A stretch of 63,909 bases of DNA, counting the filler, from Folioceros fuciformis (taxonomy: Eukaryota), in NCBI GenBank assembly GCA_049999805.1. It is 12 parts of 12 records of this genome, joined end to end, with 100 filler letters (N's around TTAATTAATTAA, not from the genome) between each part and the next. Parts side by side here need not be neighbours in the genome. Positions count along the whole stretch, not along the records: positions 1 to 9,752 come from JBNGIO010001505.1; 11 more parts are not named here. One strand, given 5' to 3'. Below the pieces are notes generated by a model that saw nothing but the letters and a program-made list of their open reading frames with translations, was not told the DNA's origin and did not search any database. The translations under genes were made by a program, and so were the position numbers. This document shows positions 1,942 through 55,934 of this stretch, piece after piece (the stretch's first letter is position 1; the number at the start of each line of letters is the position of its first letter).

Positions 1942-2524
1942 TTGGGCGGTCGGGACGACCACCAGAGAAGAGGGCAATACTTTTGGGGTTGGAGGTCTCT
2001 CTAGCCTTCCTTCGTTGTTCCTCTTGACGAAGGAGAGAAATAGTCTCATCCAGTGTCTTGGGATTAGCCATCTAAGTCATTACGAGGGCGGACCACGATG
2101 GTGGCATCGCCTGAAGCAGCTGAACAGAGGCATCATGGTCAGAGACTGTGGTGCCGGCAATCTCCATAGAATCCTTCAAGTTTATGAACTTGTTCACGAA
2201 CTACTCGATGGAGTCAGTCTCAGACATGCGGAGGGAATAAAACTTCCGCGTCATGTAACCCTTGTTGACGGCGTTGTCGAAAACATATTTCTTCTTCAAG
2301 TAGTCCCAGACCTCCTTGGAAGTTGGGAGATGCCGAACGACCTTCATTTGAACGTCCTTCATGTACAACATTAAGTTGGCGCGTGCCCGCTGGTCCAAAG
2401 AATCCCATGCTTGCTTGCTACCGGGGTTTAAGGTAGGGGTATGGTAAGTCGTGCCTCCTGGTGTAGGAGGTGGAGTAGAAGGGCGCGGCTCACGGCCATC
2501 CACAATGCTGAACAAATCTTCTCG
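1942..2524 (-). pseudogene. Gag fragment of an older host Copia element, interrupted on both sides
   Basis: UBN2-type gag translation EDLFSIVDG...WDSLDQRARANLML...SKEVWDYLKKKY...KFYSLRMSETDSIE. It joins 9005-9094 across the TSD as WSRKIEVFLLR/EDLFSIVDG. Confidence 0.85.
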
Positions 2525-2747
2525 TGTGAACTTTCGTAGCATGGACTACATGCATAGGCATGATTAGAAGTGTGCTTTACATTACTATGAGAATAAGAGA
2601 AAGTTAGAAAAGTACGAAGATCAGGGGTCCTTTTATAGGAGCCCGGGTACCCCTTCGTAGGGGTGCGACTATTCGCTTAACGAGCTAGGGTTAGCCTAAC
2701 TCTCCTGACTATTGGCTAGGGTTATGTGACTCTTACTAACCTTAACA
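2525..2747 (-). repeat. 3' LTR of element B
   Basis: 223 bp, about 10 mismatches to 8782-9004 by manual count (~95.5% identity). Confidence 0.97.
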
Positions 2748-2759
2748 CTCCCTCTTAAG
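2748..2759 (-). promoter_or_regulatory. Polypurine tract of element B
   Basis: CTTAAGAGGGAG on the minus strand abuts the 3' LTR and is identical to the PPT at 1670-1681. Confidence 0.9.
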
Positions 2760-2814
2760 GGAAACATAGCCTAAGCTACAACTCCCTCTGTCGGGGGGGA
2801 ATGTCTTCTAGTCT

Positions 2815-5800
2815 TCAGTTGTTGGAGAGGTAGGGGGCGAAGTCGATTAGCCCCATACTCTGCATGTGCTGGTAGGGCCGGATCTTGGGTAGCCCTTTTG
2901 TCAGGATGTCTGCTAGGTTATCCTCAGTGGGTACGTAGCTGGCTTGTACCACCTTGCGCTCGACCACATCCCGGATGTAGTGATGTTGGATCTCTATATG
3001 CTTCGTCCTGGCATGAAACCTGGGGCTCGAGATTAGGGCAAGTGCTGACATGTTGTCGCAGTAGAGGGGCGTCGACTGATCTTGCCTCTGGCTAGTGTCG
3101 GCTAAGAAAGTCCTTTCCCACTCAGCTTCCTTATAGGCATTGGTGAGGGACTTGTACTCAGCCTCTGTAGATGAGAGGGCTATGGAAGCTTGCTTCTTGC
3201 AACTCCAATTCACTGCGGCTGAGGAAAGGAGGAAACAGTGTGCGCTTAAACTTTTCCTTGAGTCTGGGTCAGATGCCCAGTCAGCATCCGTATAGCCGCT
3301 GAGTAAAAACTCGCTTGTTCCTCCGCTTTGGTACATCAGCCCATATGTTGAGGTGCCCTTCAAATAGCGGAACACTCTCTTGACGGCAGCCCAATGCGCC
3401 TTGCCGGGGGTCTCCAGGAATTGAGATGCTGTGGAGGCGGAATAGTGGATGTCGGGCCTTGTCTAGCCGCTAACGAAGAGGAGACTTCCTACAGCGTGGC
3501 GGTAGGGGATTTCTTGCATTTCCTTTACCTCCTCTTCGGTCTGGGGGCATTGCTCAATAGTGAGCCTGGTGCCCACAGCATAGGGTGTGGATACGGGCCT
3601 GGCTTGATCCAGCTTAACTTCCACAGTATCTCGTTGATGTATTTATGCTGGTGGATGGTCAACCTTCCCTCAGCTCTGTTTCTTAGGATTTGTAACCCGA
3701 GGCAGAATTGGAGCTCCCCAATGTCCTTCATCTCGAAGCGGGAGCTTAAGAGCTATTTAACCTCTGCTAGCATGTTGTGGTCGTTAGCGGAAAGAATAAG
3801 GTCGTCCACATATAGGGCAAGGATGACAAAATGAGGGCCTCGGGTCAACTTGTACACGTTATCGTTGGCCGCGCTCTGGGCAAAGGAGATGCTGAGCAGG
3901 TAGGTGTGCATAGTGGTATACCACACCCGCTCGCTTTGTTTAAGTCCATATATGCACTTCCTCAGCCTAAGGACTTTGTGAGGATAGTCCTTGCTGACGT
4001 AGCCCTCCGGTTGATCCATATAGAGCTCCTCGTCCAAGTTGCCGTAGAGGTAGGCAGTCTTGACGTCCATTTGGTGAAGCTCTAGGTCAAGTTCGGCCAC
4101 AAGGGCAAGCAAGATCCGAATGGATTGGGCACGTACCACTGGGGAGAAGGTCTCTTGGTAGTCTAGGCCTTCGACCTGGGAGAAGCCGCGAGCTACCAGC
4201 CGAGCCTTGAAGCGATCCACCTGTCCATGAGCATTCAGCTTAAGCTTGAACGTCCACTTGCAGGAAATGGGCTTCCTTCCAGGGGGCGGGTCGACGAGTT
4301 CCCAAGTTTTGTTCTGAAGTAAACTCTGGTACTCGTCCTCCACCGCGACCCGCCACTGGGAGGACTCAGGTCCTGCATAGGCTTGGGCAAGAGTGGTCGG
4401 TTCCTCCGGAAGGGCCGTAGGGGATAAGGCCGCGGATAGGGAGCTGGAAGCCGTCCGGAAGTCAATAGACTGGTAAGGTGGCTCAGCCCATTGAGATGGT
4501 GGGGCTCGGTTGCGGGTACCGCGACGAGGGCCAGGATTAAGTGCCAGGGCAGCCGGCATGGGATCGTCTGCAGCCATCGTGGGCTCCGCAGGAGGTAGCT
4601 CCTCGGGGCCAGCCGGTGGCAAATCCTGGCCAAGGTCGTTAGCAGCATGAACAGCAGGGGGCGGAGGATCAAGGCAGGTACCGTTGCTGTCTTCATGTGG
4701 CGTGCCGGGGACGATAGGCTCGTTGTCATCAGTGACCAGGCTGGCGTCCAAGTGCTCCGAGTAGCCGTGGTCACCGTCCTCGATAGGGTAGGCGCTCACA
4801 GTGTCAGTGTCGACAGTCGCAGGGCTGTCGACTGGCACGTCTCCCTCTGAAGCTGGCTTGACTAGCTCCAAGAAGGTGACAGTGCGCGCCAAGGTGATGT
4901 CATGTGTCTCGGAGTCAAAGAGCTTGTAGGCCTTGGAGCTCTCACTGTATCCCACGAAGATGAGCTTCTTTGCCCTGTCATCCAACTTGCGTCGCTTCTT
5001 GGTAGGGATGTGAGCAAAAGCTGGCGAGTCGCTTACCCGGAGGTGCTGAACGCTGGGTTTTCGCTGCCAATATGCCTCATATGGGGTACGGCCAGGGACA
5101 GAACTTGTAATAACCCGGTTTAGGATATATGTCACCGCCACTATGGCCTCCGCCCAGAAACCTTGCGGAAGTCCAGACCATAGCAACATACTCCGGGTCA
5201 TGGATAGGAGCGTTTGGTTCTTGCGCTCCGCTACTCCATTTTGCTGTGGAGTGTAAGGCACAGTGAGCTGTCTTTGAATTCCTCGCTCGAGGAGGAAGGC
5301 ATCAAACTCATTGTTCACAAACTACGTTCCATTGTCACTCCACAGGGTCTTCAACTTCTGTCCAGTCTGGCGCTCAGCCACTGGGAGCCACTCCTTGAAG
5401 TACGTGAACGTCTCACTCTTCAGATGCATCGGGAACGTCCAGGAGTATCTGCTGAAGTCATCTGTGATAGTGAGATAGTATATAGCACCGCCAAGTGAGG
5501 GAGTGTGGATCTTCCCGGATATGTCGGCATGTGCTAAGGCCAGCACGGCCTCGGCCCTATGCGCCTCCTTCGGGAAGGGAGACTCCTTCTGCTTGGCGAT
5601 AACGCAAGATTCTTAGACCGGTAGGTGTTGGAAACATCTAGGGAGCGGCTCTTGGTAGAGGCCTTGTGAGGACATGGAGATTAGCTTGTGTTTGTTGATG
5701 TGGGCCAGCCTAGCGTGCCAAAGGGTAGCTAGGTCTTCAGGTGAATGTCTAGCGACGTAAGCAAGTGGCCCTTGTTTGCTGTTCAAGATCAGTCTGTACA

Positions 5801-7194
5801 AGCCGTCTTGGGGGATAGCTCCCATCAGGCATAAGTCAGGACTGGGTGGTCTATAGAAACAGCAGGAGTCACGGGAAAAGGTTACTTCCAGTGTACTTTG
5901 CCGCACTAGTTGTCTGAGGGACACGAGATTCTTCCCCATCTGTGGCACATAGAGCACGGGCTTGAGGGTCAGTGTAGATCCATCGGATAGGGGTAGCTCG
6001 CAGGTCCCTTGGCCAAGTATCGGCAGGCTCGACTTGTTCTATTCGTCGCCAAGGAGTACCCTCTCTCTGATCGGACGGTAGTCCAGCTGGGAGAAGAGGG
6101 TGTTGTCGTTGCAGATGTGGGCGGTGGTGCCACTGTCCAGGTACCACCCCTGATCCTGCTGTGGCTGTGTGCTCAAGCAGACAGTAAGGATCTTCACCGT
6201 CTTTGGGTCCTCGGGCTTGCTCTTGACGGCCACGTTTGCAGTCTGGCGAAGGCCGGGCTTCTGAGGCTCCCCAGCTTTTTTCTTCCGGCATTCTCGCGCC
6301 CAGTGGCCGAGAGTGCCACACCAGTGGCAGTTGCCCGTCTGGCGTGGCGGAGCAGAGGTCGATTCACCTTTGGGGGTGGTGGCTTGCTTCCCTTTTGCCT
6401 TCCCGGGCTTGAACCGAGCAGCAAGCGCCTTATCAGCCTTGGGCTTGGACCCGCTTGCCGAAGTAAGGCGACTTTGCTTGTGTTGATAGAGTGCTCCAAT
6501 GATTTCCTCCACTGTCAGGGGGGAGGTAGAGCCGGTGGCACCATGTGTTGACATCAACATCAAACTGGTGACAAAATGCTGATAAGAGGGTGGTAGACTT
6601 ATCAGCAATTGGGCGGCGGTGTCGGTCTCAATCATGGTTGAGCCGAGGGATGCCAGCTGTCCACGTAATTGCCAAAATCTGGATGTATGGGCTGCCACCA
6701 AGTTAGACTCCTTCATTTTAAGGGCGTTGAACTCCTGCCTGACGCTGTAGAGGGTCAAGACATTGTTGACATCGTATGTGTTGGAAAGCTGGTCCCAAAT
6801 TGCGGAAGCGTCGGTGAGGAACTCGATGCTGGGGACCAGGTTGGAGTCCAGGCCACTGATGAGGAGAGCGATGGTGATGCTGTTGAGGTAGTCCCATCGC
6901 TCCACATCGGTAGTCGAAGGTGGAGGAACGGAAGTGGGGGCCCGACTTGGGGTTAGCTGCCGTCCACGACTTTCCATAGGCCTCTACCGATGAGGAAAGA
7001 CTTCATCCGAACTCGCCATACTGGGTAGCGCTGGCCGTTGAAGCGGTCTTTTCGTTTATTTGCTCGGTGAAGATGGGGATGGCGCCCGGTGTTGAGGTCA
7101 AGGGGTTGCTGGCCATCGTAGTTGTTGTGTTCAAAGACAATGAATTCATCTGCTGGATCAGCTGGTCCACAAAGAGGCTGTATCCTGTGGTCAT
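2815..7194 (-). pseudogene. Copia gag-pol polyprotein, disrupted by several stops and frameshifts
   Basis: Zinc knuckle CHWCGTLGHWAREC, protease WYLDSG, GAG-pre-integrase LWHARLAH, integrase TPQQNGVAERKN, RT (KARLVARGF, QMDVKTAYL, LYVDD) and RNase H (GYTDADWA, KHIEIQHHYIRD). Confidence 0.95.
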
Positions 7195-7339
7195 AAAAAA
7201 AACCTCGAAATCGAAGCTGACTCCTTCCTTAGAAATTATGTATAGGGAGGGGTTACGACCGGGAGAAGGAAACAATTGTCACAGTTGTGGAGCTGGTGTC
7301 AGCGTGCTCTCGGACGAGAAAAGGAATCCAATCCTGAAA

Positions 7340-8461
7340 TCACTGATAACAACTCAAGTCTTGCGGGCAAGGAACGTGATAGCTGTCTGGGTCCGGCTCG
7401 GATAGTCGACGTAGTCGGTAGACGAGGTCCACGAGGTCCTCGGTGGTTCTCTCGAGCTGGGCCCACAGATCCTGGGTAGAGTTTATTAGAGCTGGCGGCG
7501 TCGGCGGGGGCTCAGTCTTCACAGGAGGGTCGGGCCCAGGTGCTGGCTGGGTGTTCGTGAGCTGAGTCGGCAGGAGAGGTCCGCACTGCAGGGGAAACAA
7601 AGGCGAAGAAAAGGGCTCAGCGTTATTATTATTAAAAAAATAATAATGGCCCGTGGGGAGGGTAGATGACCCCTCCACCCCCAGCGGGTGCGTGGGCACC
7701 GTTTCGGGACGGGTATGCCCGTCCGCGAACGGGCGCGCATACCCGTTCGCCCGGGGGCCCGTACGTGCGGGACACCCGGGGCTCGGGGCCTCGGGGGGCA
7801 CGGGGCCTGCACCGGCGCCCGCTTTCGGTGAGGCGCCCGCTCCCGCAGTGGCGCCCGCTCCCGTGGTGGCGCCCGCTCCCGTGTGCCCGTTCGGATCTGG
7901 GCCGTGCCTCACCGCGCCAGCCCAGGCTGGGTTGAAGTTCCGGTGTTCGGATAGTGCCTGCTCCACAGCCTCGGCACGCTCTGCTTCCAGAGTTCGAAGA
8001 AGGTCAGGGGAATTCCTCCATCCGGATGCTGGAATGGAGAGTTCAGAGGGAGGCGCCTCCTGTCCGTCCGCATAGAATTTGCGTCGTTGTGGAAATCCCC
8101 TGGATTGCACTTCTGGTGGAACGGACTGAATTCGAGGTGCACCTGGCAGGGACTTAGAGAAATCTGTGGGGGATTCCGGACTTACGGTGGAGGAGTCCGG
8201 GCATGGAGTGGGGAAGCGTGGGGCTGCCCACGAGTGCCTCCTGAGCTCCTCCCGCAGCACTGCCCCCTGTTTGCTTCTAAGCAGGCCGAGCAAAGCTTTC
8301 TCCAGATCCAGGATTGCCGGGTGCTTGGTCGCCCGCCTTCTCTGCAAACGGGGGATTAGATGTGCTGGAAGGTACCGGCGGGAACCCTGGTGCTTGTGCT
8401 TGGGGGGGCAAGCCCTGCAGGGCGTTAGGAGCCTGGAATTGCGCCTGCTCTTCTTTGCCAT
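7340..8461 (-). CDS. Extra 5' ORF (ORF0) of Copia element B, 373 aa, function unknown
   Basis: Uninterrupted ATG-initiated ORF between the PBS and gag, in the sense orientation. Its C-terminal motif is conserved in element C at 19710-19783. Confidence 0.6.
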   Translation of the reverse strand: MAKKSRRNSRLLTPCRACPPKHKHQGSRRYLPAHLIPRLQRRRATKHPAILDLEKALLGLLRSKQGAVLREELRRHSWAAPRFPTPCPDSSTVSPESPTDFSKSLPGAPRIQSVPPEVQSRGFPQRRKFYADGQEAPPSELSIPASGWRNSPDLLRTLEAERAEAVEQALSEHRNFNPAWAGAVRHGPDPNGHTGAGATTGAGATAGAGASPKAGAGAGPVPPEAPSPGCPARTGPRANGYARPFADGHTRPETVPTHPLGVEGSSTLPTGHYYFFNNNNAEPFSSPLFPLQCGPLLPTQLTNTQPAPGPDPPVKTEPPPTPPALINSTQDLWAQLERTTEDLVDLVYRLRRLSEPDPDSYHVPCPQDLSCYQ

Positions 8462-8769
8462 GGAGTCTCGAAGGAAAAACGGGGCACAGGAGCAAGAGGC
8501 GAGAGGAGGGGAGGGGCCTTGAGCCTCTCCCGTTCTTCTTTTTTAAATTCCATTCTTGCTCCGCTATTCCATATCTTAAATATAACTGCAATTTGTTGTA
8601 GGCAAGGTAGCAGAGGGGGGCCGATCTCCGGGGTCTCAGCGGCTAAGCATCCCGCCCGCGGGTCAGTACCCGGACGGGGTGCCTATACAGGCACGAGGTG
8701 CCATATTGTGATTTTTTTTTAGGTTGTTACTGAAGTATGATCGTATAGATCACCGGATGCTGAGCCTGA

Positions 8770-8781
8770 GCTCTGATACCA
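8770..8781 (-). promoter_or_regulatory. Primer binding site (tRNA-iMet)
   Basis: TGGTATCAGAGC on the minus strand, immediately inside the 5' LTR. Confidence 0.96.
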
Positions 8782-9004
8782 TGTGAACTTTCGTAGCATG
8801 GACTACATGCATAGGCATGATCAGAAGTGTGCTTTACATTACTATGAGAATAAGAGAAAGTTAGAAAAGTACGTAGATCAGGGGTCCTTTTATAGGAGCC
8901 CGGGTACCCCTTGTGAGGGGTCCGACTATTCGCTTAACGAGCTAGGGTTAGCCTAACTCTCTTGACTATTGGCTAGGGTTATATGACTCATACTAATCTT
9001 AACA
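8782..9004 (-). repeat. 5' LTR of element B
   Basis: 223-bp direct repeat of 2525-2747 with TG...CA ends and TATAAAA on the minus strand. Confidence 0.97.
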
Positions 9005-9094
9005 TCTCGAAGGAGAAAGACCTCAATCTTACGACTCCATGATGGTGCTGTCGAAGAAATTGACCAGCTTACTTATGGAGTGGTTAGAAGACAT
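9005..9094 (-). pseudogene. N-terminal gag fragment of the host Copia element
   Basis: MSSNHSISKLVNFFDS, then a frameshift to WSRKIEVFLLR, which continues at 2519 once element B and one TSD copy are removed. Confidence 0.75.
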
Positions 9095-9752
9095 TTTATA
9101 TAGAATATATAGGCGTGGTCGATGGGCTCGATCTTCACATGTGGAGGGTGTTTTGGGCCAGTCTCGTGGTCCGCATAGCCAGCAATAGGTGTCAGGCTCC
9201 CAAGGGACAAGTTCAAGTGTGAAAAGGTACAAGGTGAAACCGGTTCCAAAAAGGTGGGGTATAAACTGCTTGGGTGTGAACTTAGGGGGTGTAACTTTTC
9301 GAAGCGACAAGTTAAGTTGTCGCTTCACTTGGGGGGTGCCCCTTCCACTTGGGCACGCCCCTTGGTGACGGCGCGCTCCGCCTCAGCTTGCTTCAGCGCA
9401 GCGATGTGCTCAACCTGCAGCGCATGCTGCAGGTTCGAAGTGTGCACAATTCCTGGAATTGAATCAACAAGCACGGACGCTCCATCCTGCTGTGGGCCGT
9501 GTCGAGAGCCAGTGAATTGCGAGCAGTGATTCACCGAGAATTGCTCCAGATACTGCAAATCTGCACCTCCTCTCAAATCCCCCTCAATTGCCCATGGTAT
9601 CAAATTAGTTTTGATAGCATCGGATGGGGAATGGGAAGCAAGGGGCAGAGAATCAGGGAGGCCCCAGGGACCAAATCGTCGTCAGAAAAGCCGTGGACAA
9701 AGCAATCCTCCCTTGGGCGCCGATTGGGTCTGCAGGTGCAGTGGTGAGGGGC

Positions 9753-9852
9753 NNNNNNNNNNNNNNNNNNNNNNNNNNNNNNNNNNNNNNNNNNNNTTAA
9801 TTAATTAANNNNNNNNNNNNNNNNNNNNNNNNNNNNNNNNNNNNNNNNNNNN
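9753..9852. other. Artificial contig-joining linker (first of 11)
   Basis: Identical 100-bp 44N-TTAATTAATTAA-44N block, with stops in all six frames. It recurs at 11763-11862, 17661-17760, 19597-19696, 22282-22381, 24208-24307, 36228-36327, 52522-52621, 55014-55113, 60144-60243 and 62566-62665. Confidence 0.99.
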
Positions 9853-11672: not shown

Positions 11673-11862
11673 TGCGCCCCTTGCTTGCCACCTTCAGCTC
11701 CAGCCGGCCCTGTTTACTCCAGCAATGACAACGGAAATGGCAAGCTCCGTGGTGAGCAGGAGNNNNNNNNNNNNNNNNNNNNNNNNNNNNNNNNNNNNNN
11801 NNNNNNTTAATTAATTAANNNNNNNNNNNNNNNNNNNNNNNNNNNNNNNNNNNNNNNNNNNN

Positions 11863-17231: not shown

Positions 17232-19305
17232 GTGGTGGACTGGACGTCCATGAGGCAGGTACACCAGCAATGCCATGCAAATCACACCCGTCGCCAACTT
17301 CCACATCGACTGCGAAACCTGTATACTACAACTTGGAGCCTCCATCACCGTCTGTACTACTGCATATAAATCAATGTAGGCATGACGCTACCATCTCTGG
17401 ATCTTTTTCTTGACTTGGCTGAGTTGCTTGCCAAATACAATATCCTCACAACTTTTGTCTTCTTGCAAGACTGGTTGACTCAGACCAAAATTGTTTTCAT
17501 GTTGCGTACTGGCATTTCTACCTCGGACTCTCCCTCCTGCTCTGCAGAGTGTGGCAATTTACAAAGCAAAAAGTAGAACCACTGCCATGACTTTTGACAA
17601 AATGACACAGCTTTTATTGAGAGAAAAGAGAGGCCACAATTGCCTCCCACCACGGCCTTCNNNNNNNNNNNNNNNNNNNNNNNNNNNNNNNNNNNNNNNN
17701 NNNNTTAATTAATTAANNNNNNNNNNNNNNNNNNNNNNNNNNNNNNNNNNNNNNNNNNNNCCCCGTCTCAGCAGTCCTCGATTCACTTACACCCCGCTTC
17801 ACTTCCGGCTTCCACTCCTTCTGGCGTCCTTTCACATTCACCCTTACTCATCACTCGGTCACTCGCTTCTCCCCTTTCTCACACACGCGCACCCTCGCGC
17901 TTCCTCTTTCGCCGGTTCTTTCGTCTGCTTTCTCAGCAATGCCCCTCCTGGGCTCCTATGAACGTTGAGGAATGGTGAGGTACCGAAGCTAAGGGAAGAG
18001 GAATCCCTTCCACTCCGAACTCGCGGATTCGGCTCCATCACCCACACCAACCACGTGACCACTTCGAGGATAGCTGGGGAGCTTCTCTCCCACTCGGCGA
18101 GGCGCCTCCTCCCGATTCGTCCCCGGACCTGATCACGGAGCGCCCACCACCTACACCCGCACCCCAGGTTGCTACGTGCGCTCGCTTGCCTGGACCTCCC
18201 ATCCAGCAACGGCCATCGCTAGGTCCCTGCAGGGTCGACTGTCCGGTTGGTTCTTGCTCATTCCTTAGGCCTTCAAACCGGCCTCTTGTACACGGTGATG
18301 GCGGTTTTCCCGCCATAAAGTCTGTCAGGCAGGGGAGGTGCGCTCTTAAATTCTGAGCGACTTGGGTCCAAATAAAGCACACTAAAAAGAACTAATCTAG
18401 CCTGCATTTACTATCGCCCTGTCCCACGCCACTAGCGGCTTCCTCCTGGCCTTCGCACGTCACCCCTCGCTGCTCCTCCTCTCGCTCTTCTGCCTCTCCG
18501 TTGGTCCGGCAGATCCTCCCAGAGGATCTCCACATCACTGCTGCTACTGCTGGGCCTAGCTGGCGGCGCAGGTGGGTCCCGCCGCTGTGGTCCACCACCC
18601 CTCCTCCTTCTCTGGTTGCTGAGGACAGCCACAGGCTCCTGTTCTACCCAGCGCTGGGCCTCCTTTTCCGTCAGTTCCTCCGGAACTCCCTCCGTGGGGA
18701 GGCAAAACCCAGGGCACTGATTGCCAACGGGTTCCACCTTTAGTGGCCACACTTATCCCACTGTCGTTGACACATTGGGTTTCGTTCCCACGAAGGAGCG
18801 ATGGGGTTCCTTGCTGCTGTGGATGGAGGGTCGGACTTGATCAACTTAATGATGGATTCGAGGGCTCCCCTCCAGCTCCGATCAGGTGTAGGACAGGCCT
18901 CACTGTCCGGCGGTCAGCTGCACCTCTCTCGGTGCCCACAAACTCACTCCAGTCACTACAACGACCCTAACCTCGTAGATCTGCGACTTCCCTCACTCAC
19001 TTCACTCACTCTCTCACTCCAGCACCAACACCAGCAACTAACAACGACACCACTACCTTCTACACTTCCCTATTGACTTCTTCTACCCGGCAAGAGTCAC
19101 TAGACTAACCCCAAAGAAAAGAAAGAAGGGAACACACTCCCCTCTTGGATATCTCCCCCCCCAACCTTCCCAGACGCCATGAAACATGGCCGGCCTACAG
19201 CACTTGTCCAAGCAAGGAACAAGAGTGGACAGGTGGAGAGAAAGACACATCCTTTACAATCAAGAGCTAGGGGCAAGCCCCTTCACCCTGGTCATTACGC
19301 CTTGT

Positions 19306-19465
19306 GATCCTACCAGACACTATACAATCGGCAACACGCTGCCCGCGATCCTACCAGACACTGTACAGCCGGCAACACGCTACCTGCGATCCTACTAGAC
19401 ACTGTATAGCCGGCAACACGCGGCTTGCGATCCTACCAGACGTTGCACAGCCGGCAACACACTGC
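19306..19465. repeat. Tandem repeat, ~4 x 41 bp
   Basis: GATCCTAC(C/T)AGAC...CGGCAACAC units start at 19306, 19347, 19388 and 19429. Confidence 0.92.
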
Positions 19466-19696
19466 AAGTCCTAAACCAAGCAGGGACAGACCACAAGAGC
19501 TCATGAAGAGAGGACCTCCAAGAGCTCACGAAGAGATAGACTGACTCCCAAAGTGAATGACTCCCTCCTCCTACAGGCTCACCTGATCTTATAGGANNNN
19601 NNNNNNNNNNNNNNNNNNNNNNNNNNNNNNNNNNNNNNNNTTAATTAATTAANNNNNNNNNNNNNNNNNNNNNNNNNNNNNNNNNNNNNNNNNNNN

Positions 19697-22281
19697 TTCC
19701 GCCTCGGCTCTTTGGAACCAGCTTCATTTACTGCCGAGTACTTTGCGGACTTGGTCTATCAACTTCGCCGCCTAGCAGAGCCAGTCCAAGAAAGCTCACC
19801 AGCCCCTTAATTGTAGGATGTCAGCAGTACTTGTGCTAAGAGGACACCAGAACAAGGTTCTCACTTTGACGGTCGAACTTATTATGTAATTCTCGTTTAT
19901 ACCTTTTGAAGTTAAGCCTACGCGGAGCCCTTCGCCAAGTTTTATGACCACGACCTACGACTCCTTTGTGAATCACTTATAGAGCAATTGAGCTCACTTA
20001 CATTAGACCCTACAGCAGCTATGGCGACAAGTGGCGCTGCCACCATCCCTGTCTCTGCCCCTGTCTACACCGATCACATGAAGGAGAAGGATCGATTCAA
20101 CGGCCAACACTACCTAGTGTGGCGCATGAAGTCTATCTTGATAGGTCAGGGCGTATGGAAGATCGTCGACAACACGTTACTAAAGCCTAACCCTTCATCT
20201 ACACCACCCCCTTCCGCTGCCGATATAGAAAGATGGGACTACTTGAATGGGATTGCTATCGCTCTCCTCATCGGTGGCCTTGGCTCTAGCCTGGTGCCCA
20301 GTGTGGAGTTCCTTATGGAAGTGTCTACAATCTGGGACCAGCTATCAAACACGTACAACGTTAACAATGTTCTAACCCTGTATAGTGTAAGGCAAGAATT
20401 TAACCTCCTAAAGATGAAGGAGACCGATACGATCTCTTCCCACACTTCCAAGTTTAGATAGTTGCGAGGATAGCTCGCCTCACTTGGCTCAACTATGTCG
20501 GAGACTGATGCCTCTACACAGTTATTGATGAGCTTGCCACCGTCTTACCAAAACTTTATTACCAGCCTGATGTTGGTATCAACTCAAGGTAAGCCAGGTA
20601 CAGTCCCCACCTAACAGTGGAGGACATCATCGGTGCTTTGTATGAGCAGGAGCAGAGCTGCCTATGCTCTCCAGGAGGGTCCAAGCCCAAAGCAGACAAG
20701 GCGCAGACCACCCGTTTCAAGCCCTGGAAGAATCAAAAAGGCAGAGCAAATTTCACCCCTAGAGGTGAATCTACCTTTGCTCCTCCTTGCCAATTGGTGT
20801 GGAGCTGCCGGCCATTGGGCACGAGAGTGTTGCAGAAGAACACCGGAGAACCACAAAGGACTGCCCTTAAACGAGCGGCTAGTGTCACTGTAAAAGGGAA
20901 AACCAGCGCACAAGAGACAAAGACCATTAAGATGCTTACGGTTTACCTCAACACCCAAATGCACCAGGTTTTAGGGTGGTATCTAGATAGCGGAGCCACC
21001 GCCCACATTTGAAATGACCGTACTCTATTCACCAAGCTGAACACTTGTCCCCTCAGAGAAAGGGTGCTACTTGGTGATGAACAGAGTAGATCTAGCTTGC
21101 CTATAGAGGGACAAGGCACTTGCGAATTCTCCCTTAAGGATAGTTTGGTGCTTATATTGGAGCCTGTGCTCCTCGTCCCCCGCATGGGCAAAAAATCTCG
21201 TCTCCATGACCCCTCTTTTGAAGCATGGCGATCTCGAGATGCTTGTCAAAAGGGGGTCACGCTGTTTCTTCTAGGCCACCAACCCTGAGCAATGCCTCTT
21301 CACTACTGAGCCTCACGATGGTCTCTATAAGCTCTCCTTTGCCGGGGAGAGCGAGCCGTCTACCTTTGCAGCTGGACTATAGAGGTTACCCCCTGATGAT
21401 CTAGCGCCCCTATGGCATGCCAGGCTTGGACACATCAATAAGAACAAGCTGATATCTATGGTGTCATAAGACTTGTATAAAGAGCCCCTACCCAAGTGCT
21501 TTCGGCATCTCCCTGTGTGCGAGTCTTGTGTGCTCGCGAAGCAAAAGGAGTCCCCTTTTCCGAAGCATGCTCATAGGGCAACTACCACACTGGAACTTGT
21601 CCTCCTGGACTTATCCTAGGCACATGAAGAGCGACACGTTCACCTACTTCCAAGATTGGCTGTTGGTTGCCGAGAGACAAACAGGCAACCAACTCAAATT
21701 CCTAAGAAGCAATAATGGAACAGAGTTTGTAAACAATGCCTTCGACGACTTTTTGCGAGAGTGAGGTATTGAAAGGCAGCTAACTATCCCTCATACCCCA
21801 CAGCAAAATGGGGTTTTGGAGAGCAAAAATTAGACCTTGTTATCCATGACCCGGAGTATGTTACTATGGGCCGGCCTTCCTCAGGGCTTCTGGGCAGAGG
21901 CCATCATCACTGCCACCTATATCCTCAATCACGTTATCACCGGCGCAGTCCCTGGGCGTACGCCCTACGAGGTATTTGGAACCAAAAACCTAGCCTCCTT
22001 CACCTCCGAGTCTTTGGGTCTACAGCCTACACTTATATCCCAAAGACCAAGCGCCAGAAGCTGGAGGATAGGTCTCGCAAGCTTATGCTTGTCGAATACA
22101 ACAAGAATGCAAAAGCCTACCAGCTAAAGTCATCCGTGAGGGTGAGATAGTAGCGTGCTCCTCCTAGTGACAGTTCGTGAATCTTTGCGGAGAATCTGCG
22201 GTACCTACATTTCCAGATCTTATCACCACCAGCATGATTCCCTATCACAATTCCCGCTGGATGATGGTGATCCCCAACAGG
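19697..22281 (+). mobile_element. Ty1/Copia element C, internal fragment of the same lineage as A and B: ORF0 tail, gag (from 19944), protease, integrase; heavily degenerate
   Basis: KEKDRFNGQHYLVWRMKSILIGQGVW, WYLDSGATAH, WHARLGH and GLPQGFWAEAI motifs, with many stops. Confidence 0.93.
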
Positions 22282-46470: not shown

Positions 46471-48336
46471 TTACAGGAACTCTTGCTTAAGCATCTCGAA
46501 GAGGAAAACGTTCCACGTATCAACAGGACCCGGCATGCACCAATGCAGGCAGTCCTGAGGGGGGTCTCGGCCGTCGGGTCCTTTTTTCGTCTTCTTGTTG
46601 GGATCTGAGTTTCTATAAGGCCCCGGATGCCCGTCTGCTCTGTACTCGAAAACGGGCGTCACGTCCATTATCCTCAGCTTAGACCCGTTGGTGATGCCTC
46701 CTCCAGCTGAAGCTTCCACCGCCTCCCTGTAAGCGTCCAGCTGATGCTTCCGCATGACAGCGGTATACGGGCTGTTGTACACCTCTTCTGCCTTCAATGG
46801 AGCCCGCTGGCCTGTACAGGACCCTCCTGTGTTCCACTCCCCTCCAGAGTAGTGGTCGGGCGAGTACGTTCTGAGAATGGTGACCCCCTTGTAGCCCGGG
46901 TGCGAGACGAGTCGCTTCAAAGCGGTACGCATGGCCACGGCAAAGGCCGCCGCGCTGTCGTAGCTCTTGTTCCGACCAGGCCCGTCCTCCCACCACAACT
47001 GCCCACCCACCACGGCATTGTCCATCACGAACGCCGTCTTCTTGGTGAACCAGTGCCCGGAAGACAACACCAGAACATCGAAGCCCGGGAGGTAGTCGTC
47101 AAATTTCTCGTCCACCTGCTGCAGGAAAAGCTTCGTCAACCCCTCCGGTGCAAAATCCACAGCCTCGCCCGAAGCATGCACCAGCCACGATGACCAGATC
47201 CTGATCACCGTCACTTGGTACGATCTGAAGTACCATCGTTGCATCTTCCTGGATCCGTGATTAGCCGGCTTTTCCACCTGCCAAACGCATCCACACTGTG
47301 AGCCACACCTGCAAAAAAGTAGCATCCCCCACAGCGAGTTCTGACAAGCCGGATGCTGGACCAAAGCCAACATCTCACCTGCATCAGAATGCACATCAGA
47401 GACTCCATCTGGTTGCGTGCCACGGAATCGCCCACAAACGCTAATGTTTTTCCCCGCAAGAGCTCGAGAAATGCGCGCGGATCAAGCCGCGGAATTGTGC
47501 AATCCCTGGGCTGCCACTTCCAGTACAAATAGCCGTTGTCAGGTCTGCCATTGGCCACACAGTTCTGCGCTCCGCTCAAGACGGGGCAGGAGTCGTGATG
47601 GTAAAGCGGCCCCTGGTCATCAGGCACCCACTCACCCGCAAAGAGATCGCAAGATCTATCTGCAACATTGCACCGCATTCCATCAGCCTGGAGAGAACGA
47701 GACGCTGCCTTGACTCGGTGTAGCTCAATCCAGACCAACCCGAACCCACTTACCCGCTGCAACAAGCTTCGGCTCCTGCTCCTGCTCTCCATCCGCCATC
47801 GCCGGCGTCAGTTCTTCCACAACGCTGACCACGTCTCCCCGCTCCGGTTCCGGCTCCGGCTCAGGAGGCGGCGCTACTGGGACGCCGTCCAGAACCCCCC
47901 ACTCCGATCCTTTTGTCCCCGCGCCCGCGAAATCACGATGCAGCACAGGAGAGGAGTGCTCCATGGCAACCGGCCCTTGCACTTTCCGTTCCCGTTCCCC
48001 TCCCGCTCCAGCCCGCTTGTCATCCTCCTCCACCCCGCTGTCCGCCGCAGCGCTCAGCGATGCGTTGGTGCTCAGCACATTCATGTCCTCGAAAACGGTG
48101 TTCTGCTGCTCGCCTGCAGGGTGACGCCCCTGCACCAATTCCTGCGCTTGGAGCACGGTCCCGGGCTTCTCCGGACGCCCGATAAACCCGAGGAAATCCG
48201 TCGGCGCCGAGCTGAGAAAGGGCGTACTAACCATCCCGAGCACGAAGGCCAGCAGAGCTGCTCCCAGCCACATACACGACACCCGGACGCTCAGGCTGGC
48301 CACCAGATTTCTCCCCATCACCCCCGCCTCCTTCAT
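46471..48336 (-). CDS. TBL: Trichome birefringence-like (TBL, YLS7/TBL17-18 type) polysaccharide O-acetyltransferase
   Basis: Exons 48336-47754, 47659-47379 and 47277-46471. N-terminal TM segment, CDLF.GEWV, GDSVARNQ and DCLHWCMPGPVDTWN. Confidence 0.95.
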
Positions 48337-52521: not shown

Positions 52522-52621
52522 NNNNNNNNNNNNNNNNNNNNNNNNNNNNNNNNNNNNNNNNNNNNTTAATTAATTAANNNNNNNNNNNNNNNNNNNNNNN
52601 NNNNNNNNNNNNNNNNNNNNN

Positions 52622-54009
52622 GATCTATCCTATGAACACCCAGCTCCTCCGGAACACCTGTCATGTCCGTCACCTTGAAGGCAAACACATCCAAATATTC
52701 AGTCAACAGTGCCTTCAAACCTACTTTCTCCTTGGGTGTGAGGTACTTGGACACCTTGACCTTCTTCCCTAGGGCCAACTCCATGTCCTCGACAACATCT
52801 GGATCCACGTAAACTCCTTCGGGACTACTCCCTACACTTGTTCCTAATCCATCTTTCGGGAAATCGTAGTCATAGGCCTTCCCCTTCCAAAAGGCAGCTC
52901 CTTCCCTTTGCTCTTCATCCCCCTGTGGATCTTCATTCTCCACCACTTCAGTATGGAAACAAGTCACCTCTTGACCCAAATCCACCATCCTGACAGTATG
53001 CCCTACTCCCTTGTAGGCTCTTGTACTACTGGAAGTGCTACCTCCAGCACTACCGGATGTGTACCCGGGGGATGGTCCTGCTGTTTCTCCGCCATAGGGA
53101 GCTTTGCTCCACGAGACAAATGAAACTTTTGTAGGTCCTGTAGGTTTAGACCTAAAGGTCACACCTTTCCTGCCAAAAACAAACACACAAGCTGTCCTGT
53201 ATAACCACGGCCTCCCAAGGAGCACCTTGTACCCTAGGTCAGACACTAGCCTCATGACAATATAGGTCAGCTTGAACGTGATCCCTCCTATCACCGTGGG
53301 CACATCCTTCAACACTCGTAGAGGCTTCCTCTTGGTCTGGTCTGCCATCCGAAGGTACACGCGAATAGGGTCAAACTCTGTGAACCCCAAGCGATGGGTT
53401 GTGTCCTCCGTCATGAGATTGACACCAGACCCCGTATCCAATGGTACATCCGGCACCAGACAATCTCCACCTCTATTTCAGGAGCTCCACAATCAGCTAG
53501 CTCCACTGAACTCATCCAGGTCGAGACTGTCTTCCCTTCGAGTGGCTCCGGTATCCCTCGGATGGCCTCCTTCACGATCTTCCTGGCCTTGGGACTAACG
53601 GACAAGAGCTGTCTCAAGCTCACCACAAACTCCTGGTCAAGCAAGGTGTCAGCAAATCCAGCAACCTTCATGGCCAAGGCCTCCCTTGCTGTTGTTGTCT
53701 TAGGAGGATTGATCCCTCCATCCTCCTCGCTTCGATCAACCTTCTCTCCTTCCTGTTCCTTCTCCAAGGGACTTGCACTCTCCACCACCCTTATCACAAG
53801 AGGGTCTGCAAATGTGACCTTCTTAGACCGGTGCATCAGCCTAATCAGCTCTTCCTCCAGCATTGCAGCAACCTCCTTGCTGATGTTGGGTGGGAATGCT
53901 GATTCTTCAGCCTCTCCTTCAGCTAGTTCACCTTCCTCTCGATGAGGTGGATCAACCTCTTGCCCAGTCAGCACATCATTCTTCCCTTGCTGGACGAGTG
54001 GTTCCTCCC
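52622..54009 (-). mobile_element. Ty3/Gypsy fragment (gag C-terminus, aspartic protease, start of RT), frameshifted
   Basis: PLDTGSGVNLM, VLLGRPWL and LLTEYLDVFAFKVTDMTGVPEELGVHRID (non-chromovirus-like). Confidence 0.88.
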
Positions 54010-54378: not shown

Positions 54379-55013
54379 CTAGCTCATGCCCATGAGTGTC
54401 CGAGCTTGTGCGAATTGCTCCGTAGAGAGCCCCTTAGTAAGAACATCTGTAGGGTTCTGACTGGTGTGAACTTTGACAAGCTGTACCCTCTTGTCTTCCA
54501 ACACCTCTCGAATGAAGTGATACTTCACTTCCACATGTTTGGTCTTCGCATGAAACACTGGATTCTTCGCCAACTGGATAGCACTCTGGCTATCACAATG
54601 CAACACTAGCAGCTCACCCTTGATCCCCAAATCTCCCACTAAACGAGCAAGCCACATGGCTTCCTTGCAAGCCTCAGTCGCTGCAACATACTCCGCCTCT
54701 GTGGTAGATAGCGTTATGCACGATTGCAAACGAGATCGCCATGAGACTGCCCCTCCATTGCACATGAAGACATAACCTGATGTGGACCTCCTTTTGTCCA
54801 TATCCCCTGCATAATCAGCATCCGTATATCCCACTACAGATGCATCTTCACTACCAAAACATAAGCACAAAGCTTTTGTACCATTCAAATACCTCATAAC
54901 TCCTTTCACTGCCTCCCAATGCTTCCTGCCAGGGTTTGACATGAACCTGCTAACCACTCCCACTGCAAAAGCAATGTCAGGACGTGTAGCAATCATTGCA
55001 TACATCAAACTCC
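54379..55013 (-). mobile_element. Copia RT-end/RNase H, open frame (Tnt1/Tork-like)
   Basis: TRPDIAFAVGVVSRFMSNPG..HWEAVK, GYTDADYAGD and KHVEVKYHFIRE. Confidence 0.95.
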
Positions 55014-55113: not shown

Positions 55114-55934
55114 ACTTGGATGCAGTTAGAAGAATCATGAGATATGTGAAAGGAACTACTGAGTTTGGATTGCTCTATGAGCATAGGAAGCATCTTGAAC
55201 TGACAGGATATACAGATGCTGATTGGGCTGGTTGTGCATATGACAGAAGATCAACCAGTGGATATGCATTCAGTATGGGAAGTAGTATGATCAACTGGCA
55301 AAGCAAGAAACAACCGACAGTTGCTTTGTTAAGCACAGAAGCAGAGTATCGAGGAGCTGCAATGGCAGCCTGTGAAGCAGCTTGGTTGCAGAAGTTGCTA
55401 CATGATCTTGGAAATATAGTGAACAGCAAGGTTACAATCTACTGTGACAACATGAGTAGCATGAGGTTGGCTACTAATCCTGTGTTTCATGCTCGTTCGA
55501 AGCACATAGAAGTACATTATCATTTCATCAGGGAAGCGGTATTACCTGAGAAGATAGATCTTCGGCTCGTGAAGACCGAAGACCAGGTTGCAGATATCTT
55601 TACTAAGTCGCTAGGTAGAGATAAGTTCTTACACTTTCGTGAACTAATTGGAGTGTTACAAATAGTTTGAGCTTGAGGGAGAGTGTTAGAAATCAAGCTC
55701 TAACTGAATTGTTATTAAGAGCATACAACACTTAGGATAGTGTAGATTATCCCATATTGAACTCGTAGTTATCTATCACCTAAGTATTATCAGGATATAC
55801 TAGGATATTGCACCCTAGAGACTAAGGCTTACCTTATCGAGGGTTGCCCTGCCTGAAGGCTATATATGTAGCATCTTGTGCACCATAAGAAAGGAACTGT
55901 GGAGTCCTTCTAGGCCTCTGGTGCTATTTCAACA
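55114..55934 (+). mobile_element. 3' end of a Copia element: RNase H (to 55670), PPT and 251-bp 3' LTR (55684-55934)
   Basis: GYTDADWAG...RRSTSGY and KHIEVHYHFIRE; PPT TTGAGGGAGAG, then TGTTAG...TTCAACA. Confidence 0.93.

What the first reader, a model, noticed from the sequence alone, without database searches (positions are those of the whole stretch)
7340..8461. Ty1/Copia lineage with an extra, apparently selected ORF upstream of gag
Seen: element B has an intact 373-codon sense ORF between the PBS (8770) and gag (7194), while its own gag-pol carries several lesions. The ORF's tail LWAQLERTTEDLVDLVYRLRRLSEP (7394-7468) reappears 160-200 nt before gag in the diverged element C as LWNQLH-TAEYFADLVYQLRRLAEP (19710-19783, one 1-nt deletion). 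Many of the differences are synonymous: CTG/CTT, CTC/CTT, ACC/ACT, CTC/TTG, TAC/TAT, CTA/CTT, CGT/CGC, CGA/CGC, CCG/CCA. Known: 5' extra ORFs characterise Ty3/Gypsy Ogre elements, whereas Copia extra ORFs are mainly the 3' env-like ORF of SIRE. Inference: this lineage encodes an uncharacterised accessory protein (basic N-terminus, disordered Pro/Gly middle, amphipathic C-terminal helix). It could act in anti-silencing, targeting or particle assembly, and gag would need splicing, an internal promoter or reinitiation to be expressed.
Basis: partly seen in the sequence, partly recalled or inferred. Interest (0 to 1): 0.78.

Follow-up and report, generated by a model that had tools for sequence, protein, structure and literature searches.

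The report
Extra gene upstream of Copia gag
A decayed plant Copia retrotransposon carries a long extra reading frame before gag, too long to be chance, whose last helix is shared with a distant relative; this hints at an accessory protein, but one intact copy cannot prove it.

Summary
Element B (2525-9004, minus strand) is a complete Ty1/copia insertion. It has 223-bp LTRs (10 differences), a 5-bp target duplication, a full tRNA-iMet primer site, a 1575-nt leader and a gag-pol with 8 lesions. The leader holds a 373-codon ORF inside a 400-codon stop-free run. The other five frames of the same 1200 nt carry 8-11 stops, and only 2-4 of 5000 shuffles reach 373 codons.

A ~92-nt island at the ORF's C-terminus is truly homologous to element C (0 of 1000 shuffles reach its score). 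B and C are otherwise saturated at synonymous sites. In the ORF0 frame the island shows pS 0.53-0.61 against pN 0.20-0.23. The tests give p = 0.006 to 0.08, which is suggestive, not decisive.

Against: there are no homologues or domains. The codon signal is weak. Ten upstream AUGs precede the start. No other contig of two DNA runs lies on the leader at 80% likeness or more, though many lie on gag-pol. Element C begins at a contig edge, so only 29 codons can be compared.

Verdict: probably a 5' sense extra ORF (eORF-5'F type), with an architecture like the Tekay 5'aORF proteins. Lineage-wide selection is not shown. I rate it a new member of a known kind, of moderate interest.

The parts
8782..9004 (-). 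5' LTR of element B (TG...CA, 223 nt). A TATAAAAG box lies at 8887-8894.
   Evidence: Direct repeat with 2525-2747 at 96%; 10 of 223 differences; sequence.
9005..9009 (-). Target-site duplication CGAGA, 5' side. Its twin lies at 2520-2524.
   Evidence: Flank sequences printed.
8770..8781 (-). Primer binding site TGGTATCAGAGC, read as complementary to the 3' end of a complete initiator tRNA-Met (the tRNA assignment is recalled).
   Evidence: Only exact match in the window; directly abuts the LTR end.
7195..8769 (-). 1575-nt leader between PBS and gag. It is C-rich on the sense strand.
   Evidence: C 526, G 407, A 337, T 305.
7340..8461 (-). ORF0: 373 codons plus stop, inside a 400-codon stop-free run (8542-7343). 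It has a single Met. Pro is 15%. The first 50 residues hold 15 K/R and 0 D/E. Predicted helices are at 36-77, 152-174 and 329-354; the rest is disordered.
8462..8875 (-). Upstream part of the leader and R/U5 with 10 ATGs before the ORF0 ATG. The last uORF (ATG 8553, 42 codons) overlaps the ORF0 start.
7814..7883 (-). 18-nt tandem repeat, 3.9 copies, in frame; it encodes the GAGAT/GAGAS run.
7709..7766 (.). GC-rich palindrome inside ORF0. Contigs of one DNA run (X2) and of run X3 end here (7764 and 7758).
   Evidence: Self-match 7709-7746; sequence; contig ends.
7381..7472 (-). Conserved island: ORF0 residues ~331-360, the C-terminal amphipathic helix. It has the highest hydrophobic moment in the protein, 0.65.
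19706..19796 (+). Homologous island in element C, 149-239 nt before C's gag ATG (19945). It has a 1-nt gap relative to B, and C's contig starts at 19697.
2818..7194 (-). gag-pol of B (gag, protease, integrase, RT, RNase H). It is broken by frameshifts near 7050, 6975 and 3600, and by in-frame stops at 6039-6041, 5613-5615, 5322-5324, 3753-3755 and 3463-3465.
2748..2756 (-). Polypurine tract AAGAGGGAG abutting the 3' LTR.
2525..2747 (-). 3' LTR of element B.

Best explanation
ORF0 is, or was when this copy inserted, a genuine element-encoded extra gene of a Ty1/copia retrotransposon. It is a 5' sense additional ORF: eORF-5'F in the terms of Neumann et al. 2019, or 5'aORF in other papers.

Shown:
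- The frame is far longer than composition allows.
- Its last ~30 codons form an amphipathic helix.
- That helix has stayed recognisable between two elements whose gag genes are saturated at synonymous sites, with changes concentrated at synonymous positions of the ORF0 frame.

Inferred:
- The protein is a mostly disordered, proline-rich adaptor. Its arginine/lysine-rich N-terminus binds nucleic acid and/or directs nuclear import.
- Its conserved C-terminal helix docks onto a partner, either the element's Gag or RNA, or a host factor.
- It would be made from the LTR-driven genomic RNA. Both ORF0 and gag would then need leaky scanning, shunting, reinitiation or a shorter transcript, because 10 AUGs precede ORF0 and ORF0 precedes gag.

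This copy is a dead insertion. Its intact ORF0 reflects luck since insertion, not selection on this locus.
For: ORF length:
- 0 stops in 400 codons against 8-11 in each of the five other frames of the same 1200 nt.
- 2 of 5000 dinucleotide shuffles and 3-4 of 5000 block shuffles reach 373 codons; 0 of 5000 block shuffles reach 400.

The island is true homology:
- Local alignment of B 7472-7381 with C 19706-19796 scores 41 against 20 +/- 2.2, with 0 of 1000 shuffles reaching it.
- The leader between the island and gag is unalignable (12-56% identity in forced windows).
- B-C gag has pS 0.80 (saturated) and pN 0.265.

Coding-type pattern in the ORF0 frame:
- 16 of 24 residues are identical against 11.5 +/- 1.6 expected, p 0.006.
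- pS 0.61, pN 0.20, omega 0.19. The shifted frames give omega 1.3 and 2.2.
- Frame 0 gives 12 of 18 identical residues against 5-9 in the five other frames.
- tblastn finds the match (E 0.009 against the whole window), whereas blastn with word size 7 did not report it at E <= 1.

Protein-level features:
- AlphaFold2 places a helix at 329-354.
- The highest hydrophobic moment in the protein (0.65) lies there. C's version keeps amphipathicity (0.50, shuffle p 0.017).
- Similarity ends within 9-20 codons of the stop in both elements.

Architecture: 373 aa, Pro 15.0%, first 50 aa with 15 K/R and 0 D/E, and three helices in disorder. This parallels the sunflower Tekay 5'aORF protein: 400 aa, NLS, three alpha-coils, 92.5% disordered, Pro 15.9% (PMC11728184, passages).

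Rival reading not backed: an RNA-structure reading of the island got no support. z is -1.0 and -1.2, the two MFE folds differ, and the consensus energy is -12.65 kcal/mol. Rfam gave nothing.
Against: Only 24-29 codons are comparable, in one decayed relative that has a 1-nt gap in the frame. With the region defined at the nucleotide level (29 codons):
- permutation p is 0.077;
- differences by codon position are 7/6/13, chi-square p 0.19;
- Fisher p is 0.014.
Block 2 extended to 78 nt gives p 0.14.

No homologue was found:
- Pfam gave 0 families at E <= 1.
- The word-indexed search of 5.8 billion proteins found none among near-length, longer or shorter candidates.
- phmmer against 1.84 billion representatives gave 1 hit, a PKD-like repeat protein matching 31 residues, which I judge spurious.
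- Metagenome loci gave none.
- ESM Atlas recognition was 1234, with no usable hit.

Coding signal in the body is weak:
- GC1/2/3 is 0.66/0.59/0.64.
- The codon-usage score is -0.028. Nine of 12 known ORFs of the window score 0.04 to 0.15 (the other three -0.014 to 0.032). Nine spurious ORFs score -0.16 to +0.03.

Translation is awkward. Ten AUGs precede the ORF0 AUG, three of them in strong context, and the last uORF overlaps the ORF0 start. The ORF0 AUG has a pyrimidine at -3.

In two DNA runs laid at 80% likeness or more, the summed depth over 7566-8441 equals that of the single perfect contig. gag-pol and LTR variant sites carry 2-14 contigs each. This is weak evidence that closer relatives lack a similar leader, because contigs show presence, not absence.

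Element A's 180 nt before gag show no similarity to B's leader (p 0.32).

ORF0's intactness beside 8 gag-pol lesions is not significant (P about 0.13).
Confidence: 0.45

Rival explanations
1. The leader is non-coding. The island is a cis-acting nucleic-acid signal of the genomic RNA or cDNA (packaging, dimerisation, cyclisation or a regulatory site). The long ORF around it is a by-product of a C-rich, stop-poor leader plus an in-frame 18-nt repeat.
For: - Leaders between PBS and gag carry such signals in retroelements (established knowledge, recalled).
- The body of ORF0 has weak codon periodicity, and its codon-usage score lies within the range of spurious ORFs.
- ESM recognition is low and there are no homologues.
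- Ten upstream AUGs precede the start.
- The unbiased 29-codon test gives only p 0.077.
- The scan looked at very many windows, so rare chance ORFs will be picked up.
Against: - 0 stops against 8-11 in the five other frames of the same sequence; block shuffles that keep local composition reach 373 codons in 3-4 of 5000 and 400 in 0 of 5000.
- The tandem repeat covers only 70 of 1200 nt.
- The island has no support for a conserved RNA fold and no Rfam match.
- Substitutions favour synonymous sites of one frame out of six.
Confidence: 0.27
2. Most of ORF0 is a recent private acquisition of B's sublineage. It could be a transduced or inserted coding fragment, or a de novo expansion. It happens to run in frame into an older, short conserved element, the island. 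In that case ORF0 is not a lineage gene.
For: - Only one contig lies on the leader at 80% or more in two DNA runs, while relatives' contigs lie on gag-pol, the LTR and the first ~50 nt after the PBS (including the joint at 8771/8718).
- The review PMC7264820 (abstract and first part read) states that transduced aORFs occur in one or a few copies.
- A 1.5-kb leader is long for copia (recalled).
Against: - No second, host-gene copy was laid on the region.
- No protein homologue exists anywhere. A captured conserved host gene should have one.
- The conserved island is in the same frame as the rest, and ORF0 has no internal Met, so the island can only be translated as part of the long ORF in B.
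Confidence: 0.2
3. The island is a displaced or frameshifted N-terminal part of gag, so that intact copies encode one longer Gag.
For: The island lies 149-278 nt before the gag ATG in both elements, and it is in the +1 frame relative to gag in both (my arithmetic).
Against: - The ATGACCAC gag start is conserved in A, B and C.
- The spacer between island and gag is unalignable and differs in length between B and C.
- The ORF0-frame reading ends in a stop within 9-20 codons of the island in both elements.
- No longer protein (654-2000 aa) shares the C-terminal 74 residues; 16 candidates were scored and none passed.
Confidence: 0.04

Closest known systems
eORF-5'F class of extra ORFs in plant LTR retrotransposons (Neumann et al. 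2019, REXdb survey, PMC6317226; passages read)
   Same: At least 250 codons, forward orientation, and located between the 5' LTR and the polyprotein. There is no conserved domain. The paper describes eORF proteins as highly heterogeneous and only 21.4% domain-bearing: 582 Ty1/copia elements with eORFs fell into 45 similarity groups.
   Different: In the text only the SIRE 3'-forward eORF is called characteristic of a copia lineage. How many copia eORFs are 5'-forward, and in which lineages, is in supplements I could not see. Here there is in addition a short stretch conserved across deeply diverged elements.
Tekay/Del chromovirus 5'aORF proteins (sunflower Tekay 13-2; rice RIRE3/RIRE8/Retrosat-2), PMC11728184 (passages)
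   Same: Position before gag and sense orientation. Size is ~400 aa there against 373 here. Both have an NLS-like basic stretch and three helices in a mostly disordered chain. Pro is 15.9% there against 15.0% here. Neither has a known domain. Sequence similarity between species is absent even within Tekay.
   Different: Those are Ty3/gypsy chromoviruses, and the sunflower ORF is present in 500 of 523 family members. Here the host element is Ty1/copia and only one full copy is known. No sequence comparison was possible, because none of those proteins was at hand.
Ogre ORF1 (Ty3/gypsy Tat clade)
   Same: A large sense ORF upstream of gag in a plant LTR retrotransposon.
   Different: 57% of Ogre elements carry the plant mobile domain PF10536 in their eORF (PMC6317226). 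ORF0 has no Pfam match at E <= 1, and the element is copia.
sORF1/sORF2 of Drosophila MDG1-group elements (PMC11952523, passages)
   Same: Accessory sense ORFs between the LTR and gag. They are reported there as judged functional from low dN/dS, and are expressed from the LTR transcript with short and long isoforms.
   Different: They are insect Ty3/gypsy ORFs of 70-110 aa, and sORF2 is a FAST-like membrane fusogen. ORF0 is 373 aa; I did not run a transmembrane prediction.
SIRE env-like ORF (eORF-3'F) of Ty1/copia
   Same: An extra, fast-evolving sense ORF in a copia lineage.
   Different: It lies between pol and the 3' LTR (74% of SIRE elements, PMC6317226). ORF0 lies before gag.

Membership tests
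Ty1/copia LTR retrotransposon (the carrier element) | Paired LTRs with TG...CA ends and a 5-bp target duplication | tested here: met
   LTRs 2525-2747 and 8782-9004 with 10 of 223 differences; TSD CGAGA on both sides.
Ty1/copia LTR retrotransposon (the carrier element) | copia-type gag, with integrase placed before reverse transcriptase | tested here: met
   Retrotran_gag_2 4e-22; gag_pre-integrs at 5616-6038; SH3_retrovirus then RVT_2 (5e-59) in 3753-5201.
Ty1/copia LTR retrotransposon (the carrier element) | PBS next to the 5' LTR, and PPT next to the 3' LTR | tested here: met
   TGGTATCAGAGC at 8770-8781; AAGAGGGAG at 2748-2756.
Named REXdb copia lineage (Ale, Ivana, Tork, Lyco, Bryco and others) | Placement of the RT/RH/INT domains in the REXdb tree | not testable with these tools
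   No REXdb or TEsorter is available here. The only lead is the PBS. I read it as complementary to a complete tRNA-Met (assignment recalled); if so it argues against Osser/Bryco, which use half-tRNA-Met (PMC6317226).
eORF-5'F / 5'aORF (extra ORF before gag) | At least 250 codons, sense orientation, between the 5' LTR and the polyprotein | tested here: met
   373 codons at 8461-7340, between PBS 8770 and gag ATG 7194.
eORF-5'F / 5'aORF (extra ORF before gag) | Not an artefact of a tandem-repeat region (at least 3 monomers spanning more than 150 bp; Neumann's exclusion rule) | tested here: met
   The largest array is 18 nt x 3.9 = 70 nt. The ORF remains an outlier under local-block shuffles.
eORF-5'F / 5'aORF (extra ORF before gag) | Separate from the polyprotein in other copies | tested here: inconclusive
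   Stops separate the island from gag in B and C. No longer protein shares the tail. No intact relative was available.
Conserved (family-wide) aORF in the sense of Vicient and Casacuberta 2020 | Present in all or most copies, with conservation similar to gag-pol | tested here: inconclusive
   The island pN of 0.20-0.23 is similar to the gag pN of 0.265. But only 29 codons in one relative are comparable, and no other contig was laid on the leader at 80% or more.
Transduced host-gene fragment | A host gene or protein family matching the ORF outside the element | tested here: not met
   No protein homologue. No second contig was laid on the region in two DNA runs (absence from contigs is weak evidence).
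Ogre ORF1 | Ty3/gypsy Tat-clade element; plant mobile domain PF10536 in many members | tested here: not met
   The element is copia. There are no Pfam hits for ORF0 at E <= 1.
Tekay 5'aORF proteins | Chromovirus carrier; ~400-aa protein with NLS, three helices and Pro-rich disorder | tested here: inconclusive
   The architecture is met. The carrier superfamily is not met. Sequence or structure comparison was not done, because no Tekay sequence was at hand and the model pLDDT is 49.5.

The most novel reading that the evidence does not exclude
A Ty1/copia lineage of this plant carries a long-lived accessory gene before gag. Its product would be a basic, proline-rich, disordered protein ending in a conserved amphipathic helix. 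[quoted passage not shown] Its leader would also force an unconventional way of translating gag: shunting, reinitiation or a subgenomic RNA. It would be the first lineage-level 5' accessory gene described for plant Ty1/copia.
Probability: 0.3. Interest if true: 0.6.

Novelty: new member of a known kind. Interest (0 to 1): 0.4.

Why it matters
Extra ORFs of plant LTR retrotransposons are common, yet none has an established function. Those placed before gag have been characterised mainly in Ty3/gypsy (Ogre, Tekay).

A copia element with a 5' ORF of the same architecture as the Tekay proteins would suggest that independent retrotransposon lineages converge on the same kind of helper. That architecture is a basic N-terminus, Pro-rich disorder and a few helices. 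Such convergence is an argument that these ORFs do something, for example nuclear import, RNA chaperoning or countering silencing.

It also poses a concrete translation problem: gag lies behind 1.6 kb containing a 373-codon ORF and many AUGs.

If instead the ORF is private to one dead copy, this is an ordinary case of leader expansion.

Tried and rejected
- **Whole genome:** none is held for this window. All-copy collection and a proper dN/dS were therefore impossible.
- **Earlier notes of the scan:** nothing for this genome or sequence. The three hits for 'copia ORF gag' are unrelated.
- **Protein searches for ORF0:** near-length, longer and shorter candidates gave nothing. Shorter and longer were searched with residues 300-373 only.
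- **phmmer:** the single hit, P0001, is a repeat protein with a WDFGDG-type repeat (PKD-like, name recalled) matching 31 residues of ORF0. I rejected it as spurious.
- **Metagenome loci:** ORF0 and B's gag found none.
- **ESM Atlas:** no usable hit.
- **AlphaFold2 on the single sequence:** pLDDT 49.5 and pTM 0.22. The model is too poor for a fold search, so none was run.
- **RNA readings of the island:** RNA fold of the island and Rfam on 6900-9100 gave no support.
- **Contig 17761-19596, which precedes C's contig in the window:** it has no PBS, no ORF over 125 codons and no similarity to B's leader. It cannot be taken as C's leader.
- **Sequencing runs:** no RNA holder is listed. Run X3, labelled RNA only by a guess, holds one 1118-nt contig identical to 7758-8875, from inside the 5' LTR 12 nt after the TATA box to ORF0 codon 235. 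That contig continues through the PBS/LTR, where the DNA-run contigs stop at 8751. X3 has no cover on the rest of ORF0 or on gag-pol apart from a 40-nt piece. None of this is used as evidence on expression.
- **Codon-usage scoring:** it did not separate ORF0 from spurious ORFs.
- **'Intact ORF0 against broken gag-pol' as a sign of selection:** rejected, with P about 0.13.
- **Literature:** searches found no description of a lineage-typical 5' sense ORF in plant Ty1/copia. One search failed on term format and was replaced. Supplements of PMC6317226, which list eORFs by class and lineage, are closed and may hold such cases. Steinbauerova et al. 2011 was not seen; I know it only as cited by others.
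Full report
**What the window is.** The 63,909-base window is not one continuous sequence. It is 12 contigs joined by N44-TTAATTAATTAA-N44 linkers. Elements A and B lie on the first contig (1-9752). Element C lies on a 2.6-kb contig that starts at 19697. Host ORFs include PMR5N plus PC-Esterase, a protein kinase and a GGACT protein, so this is a plant genome. No whole genome is held for it.

**Anatomy of element B.** B is a complete Ty1/copia insertion on the minus strand.
- The LTRs of 223 nt lie at 8782-9004 and 2525-2747 (96%; 10 of 223 differences).
- They are flanked by the 5-bp duplication CGAGA.
- The PBS TGGTATCAGAGC abuts the 5' LTR, and a polypurine tract abuts the 3' LTR.
- Pfam finds copia gag, gag_pre-integrs, the integrase SH3 domain and RVT_2 in the copia order.
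- gag-pol (7194-2818) is broken by three frameshifts and five in-frame stops.
- B sits inside the gag of yet another copia (2201-2542).

Between the PBS and the gag ATG (7194) lies a 1575-nt leader, which is C-rich on the sense strand.

**Is the ORF real?** Yes. ORF 8461-7340 has 373 codons inside a stop-free run of 400 codons. Over the same 1200 nt the other two sense frames have 8 and 10 stops, and the three antisense frames have 8, 11 and 8. Dinucleotide shuffles of the leader reach 373 codons in 2 of 5000. Shuffles confined to 30-, 60- or 150-nt blocks, which keep local composition, reach 373 codons in 3-4 of 5000 and 400 codons in 0 of 5000. The only tandem array of note is 18 nt x 3.9, which is 70 nt and in frame. 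Chance is therefore a poor explanation, although a scan of very many windows will meet rare events.

**Is it intact because it is selected in this copy?** This is not shown. At 8 lesions per 4377 nt of gag-pol, about 2 would be expected in 1122 nt, so P(0) is about 0.13 (my arithmetic). Only 2.8-3.0% of single substitutions in ORF0 would make a stop.

**The conserved island.**
- tblastn of ORF0 against the window finds only element C (19730-19795, E 0.009). blastn with word size 7 did not report the match.
- A local nucleotide alignment of B's leader with the 248 nt before C's gag picks B 7472-7381 against C 19706-19796. The score is 41 against 20 +/- 2.2 in shuffles, and 0 of 1000 reach it.
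- Downstream, up to the conserved gag start ATGACCAC, the two leaders cannot be aligned.
- B and C are old relatives. In gag, pS is 0.80, which is saturated, and pN is 0.265. In pol, omega is 0.089.
- A stretch that is still 66-70% identical in such a pair is therefore under constraint.

They give pS 0.61, pN 0.20 and omega 0.19, and the two shifted frames give omega 1.3 and 2.2. Frame 0 is the best of six (12 of 18 against 5-9).

Those 24 codons were chosen by eye at the protein level. I therefore repeated the test on the 29 codons defined by the nucleotide alignment alone:
- 17 of 29 residues identical against 14.0 +/- 1.8, p 0.077;
- differences by codon position 7/6/13, p 0.19;
- pS 0.53 against pN 0.23, Fisher p 0.014.

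Other observations lean the same way. An RNA-structure reading has no support: z is about -1, the two MFE folds differ, and the consensus is weak. Rfam gives nothing. The island coincides with a predicted helix at 329-354, which has the highest hydrophobic moment of the protein, 0.65. Element C's version stays amphipathic (0.50, p 0.017). Similarity ends within 9-20 codons of the stop in both elements. I read this as leaning to coding, not proven.

**The rest of the protein.**
- Pro is 15.0%. There is a single Met. The first 50 residues hold 15 K/R and no D/E.
- AlphaFold2 without an alignment gives pLDDT 49.5, with helices at 36-77, 152-174 and 329-354 in otherwise disordered chain.
- There is no Pfam family and no homologue in the word-indexed library at near, longer or shorter lengths.
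- The one phmmer hit among 1.84 billion representatives is a repeat-protein artefact.
- No metagenome locus was found, and ESM Atlas recognition is low.
- Codon periodicity is weak overall (GC1/2/3 0.66/0.59/0.64). It is coding-like only in codons 1-75 and 300-373.
- A codon-usage score of -0.028 falls between the window's real genes and its spurious ORFs.

**Expression logic.** A TATA box lies at 8887-8894. Between 8875 and the ORF0 ATG there are 10 ATGs, three of them in strong context, and the last uORF overlaps the ORF0 start. The ORF0 ATG has a pyrimidine at -3. Both ORF0 and gag would therefore need something other than simple scanning from a full-length LTR transcript. No run on record as RNA holds the stretch; what the guessed-RNA run X3 covers is listed under Tried and rejected.

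**Other copies.** Two DNA runs of the same organism label were laid at 80% likeness or more.
- Many contigs lie on gag-pol and on the LTR. Listed variant sites carry 2-14 contigs, and 398 of 576 laid records in X1 are under 90% alike.
- Over 7566-8441 the summed depth equals that of the one perfect contig (6728-8751).
- Contigs show presence, not absence, and leaders evolve fast. A and C, about 80% alike in gag, are already 33-62% alike before gag.
- This weighs only mildly against a family-wide ORF.

**Comparison with what is known.**
- Neumann et al. 2019 (PMC6317226, passages) screened plant elements for extra ORFs of 250 codons or more. They defined the class eORF-5'F and found eORFs in 582 Ty1/copia elements (45 similarity groups) and 3372 Ty3/gypsy elements. 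They named only the SIRE 3'-forward ORF as typical of a copia lineage. The per-class tables are in supplements that I could not open.
- Vicient and Casacuberta 2020 (PMC7264820, abstract and first part) distinguish aORFs present in most copies from transduced ones present in one or a few copies.
- The closest functional analogue is the Tekay 5'aORF protein of sunflower: 400 aa, NLS, three helices, 92.5% disordered, 15.9% Pro, present in 500 of 523 members, and with no sequence similarity to the grass Tekay 5'aORFs (PMC11728184, passages).
- Drosophila MDG1-group elements carry two small functional ORFs before gag (PMC11952523, passages).
- A 2025 review states that aORFs occur in most LTR-retrotransposon lineages (PMC12786077, passages).
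- My searches found no lineage-typical 5' sense ORF described for plant Ty1/copia.

**Verdict.**
- Most likely (0.45): ORF0 is a genuine 5' extra ORF of this copia lineage, and its C-terminal helix has been under purifying selection.
- Rival (0.27): a non-coding leader with a cis element and a chance ORF.
- Rival (0.20): a private acquisition fused to an older short element.
- Rival (0.04): a displaced N-terminal part of gag.

It is a new member of a known kind (5' additional ORFs), carried by an unusual superfamily for that position. A complete set of genomic copies would settle it.

Noticed in passing
window 9753-9852, 11763-11862, 17661-17760, 19597-19696 and seven further sites: The window is 12 contigs joined by N44-TTAATTAATTAA-N44 linkers. 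Neighbouring features across a linker need not be linked in the genome.
   Followed up: yes
window 2201-2542 (-) and 9005-9752: Element B is nested inside the gag (Retrotran_gag_2, 2.6e-17) of another copia element on the same strand. Element A (1 to about 2200, + strand) lies next to it, so this contig is a pile of copia insertions.
   Followed up: partly
window 7709-7766: A GC-rich palindrome inside ORF0. Contigs of one DNA run (X2) and of run X3 end here (7764 and 7758), which suggests an assembly breakpoint or a strong hairpin.
   Followed up: partly
window 19303-19463: A 41-nt tandem repeat (three overlapping 79-nt copies, 84-87% alike to the first) in the contig placed before element C. 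The contig has no PBS and no long ORF.
   Followed up: partly
window 46471-47792 (-): A PMR5N plus PC-Esterase (TBL-type) gene split over two overlapping ORFs, probably by an intron or a frameshift. It marks the genome as a plant.
   Followed up: no
window 52566-53414, 54379-55005, 55137-55670: Further retrotransposon fragments at contig ends. Two are copia-like RNase H-end ORFs in opposite orientation, and one is a polyprotein piece. This is judged by eye from the translations and was not run through Pfam.
   Followed up: no
window 8718-8771: In both DNA runs a high-depth contig joins 8771 back to 8718 (goes back 54). This suggests that relatives share, and duplicate, the ~50 nt just after the PBS, while the rest of the leader differs.
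   Followed up: no
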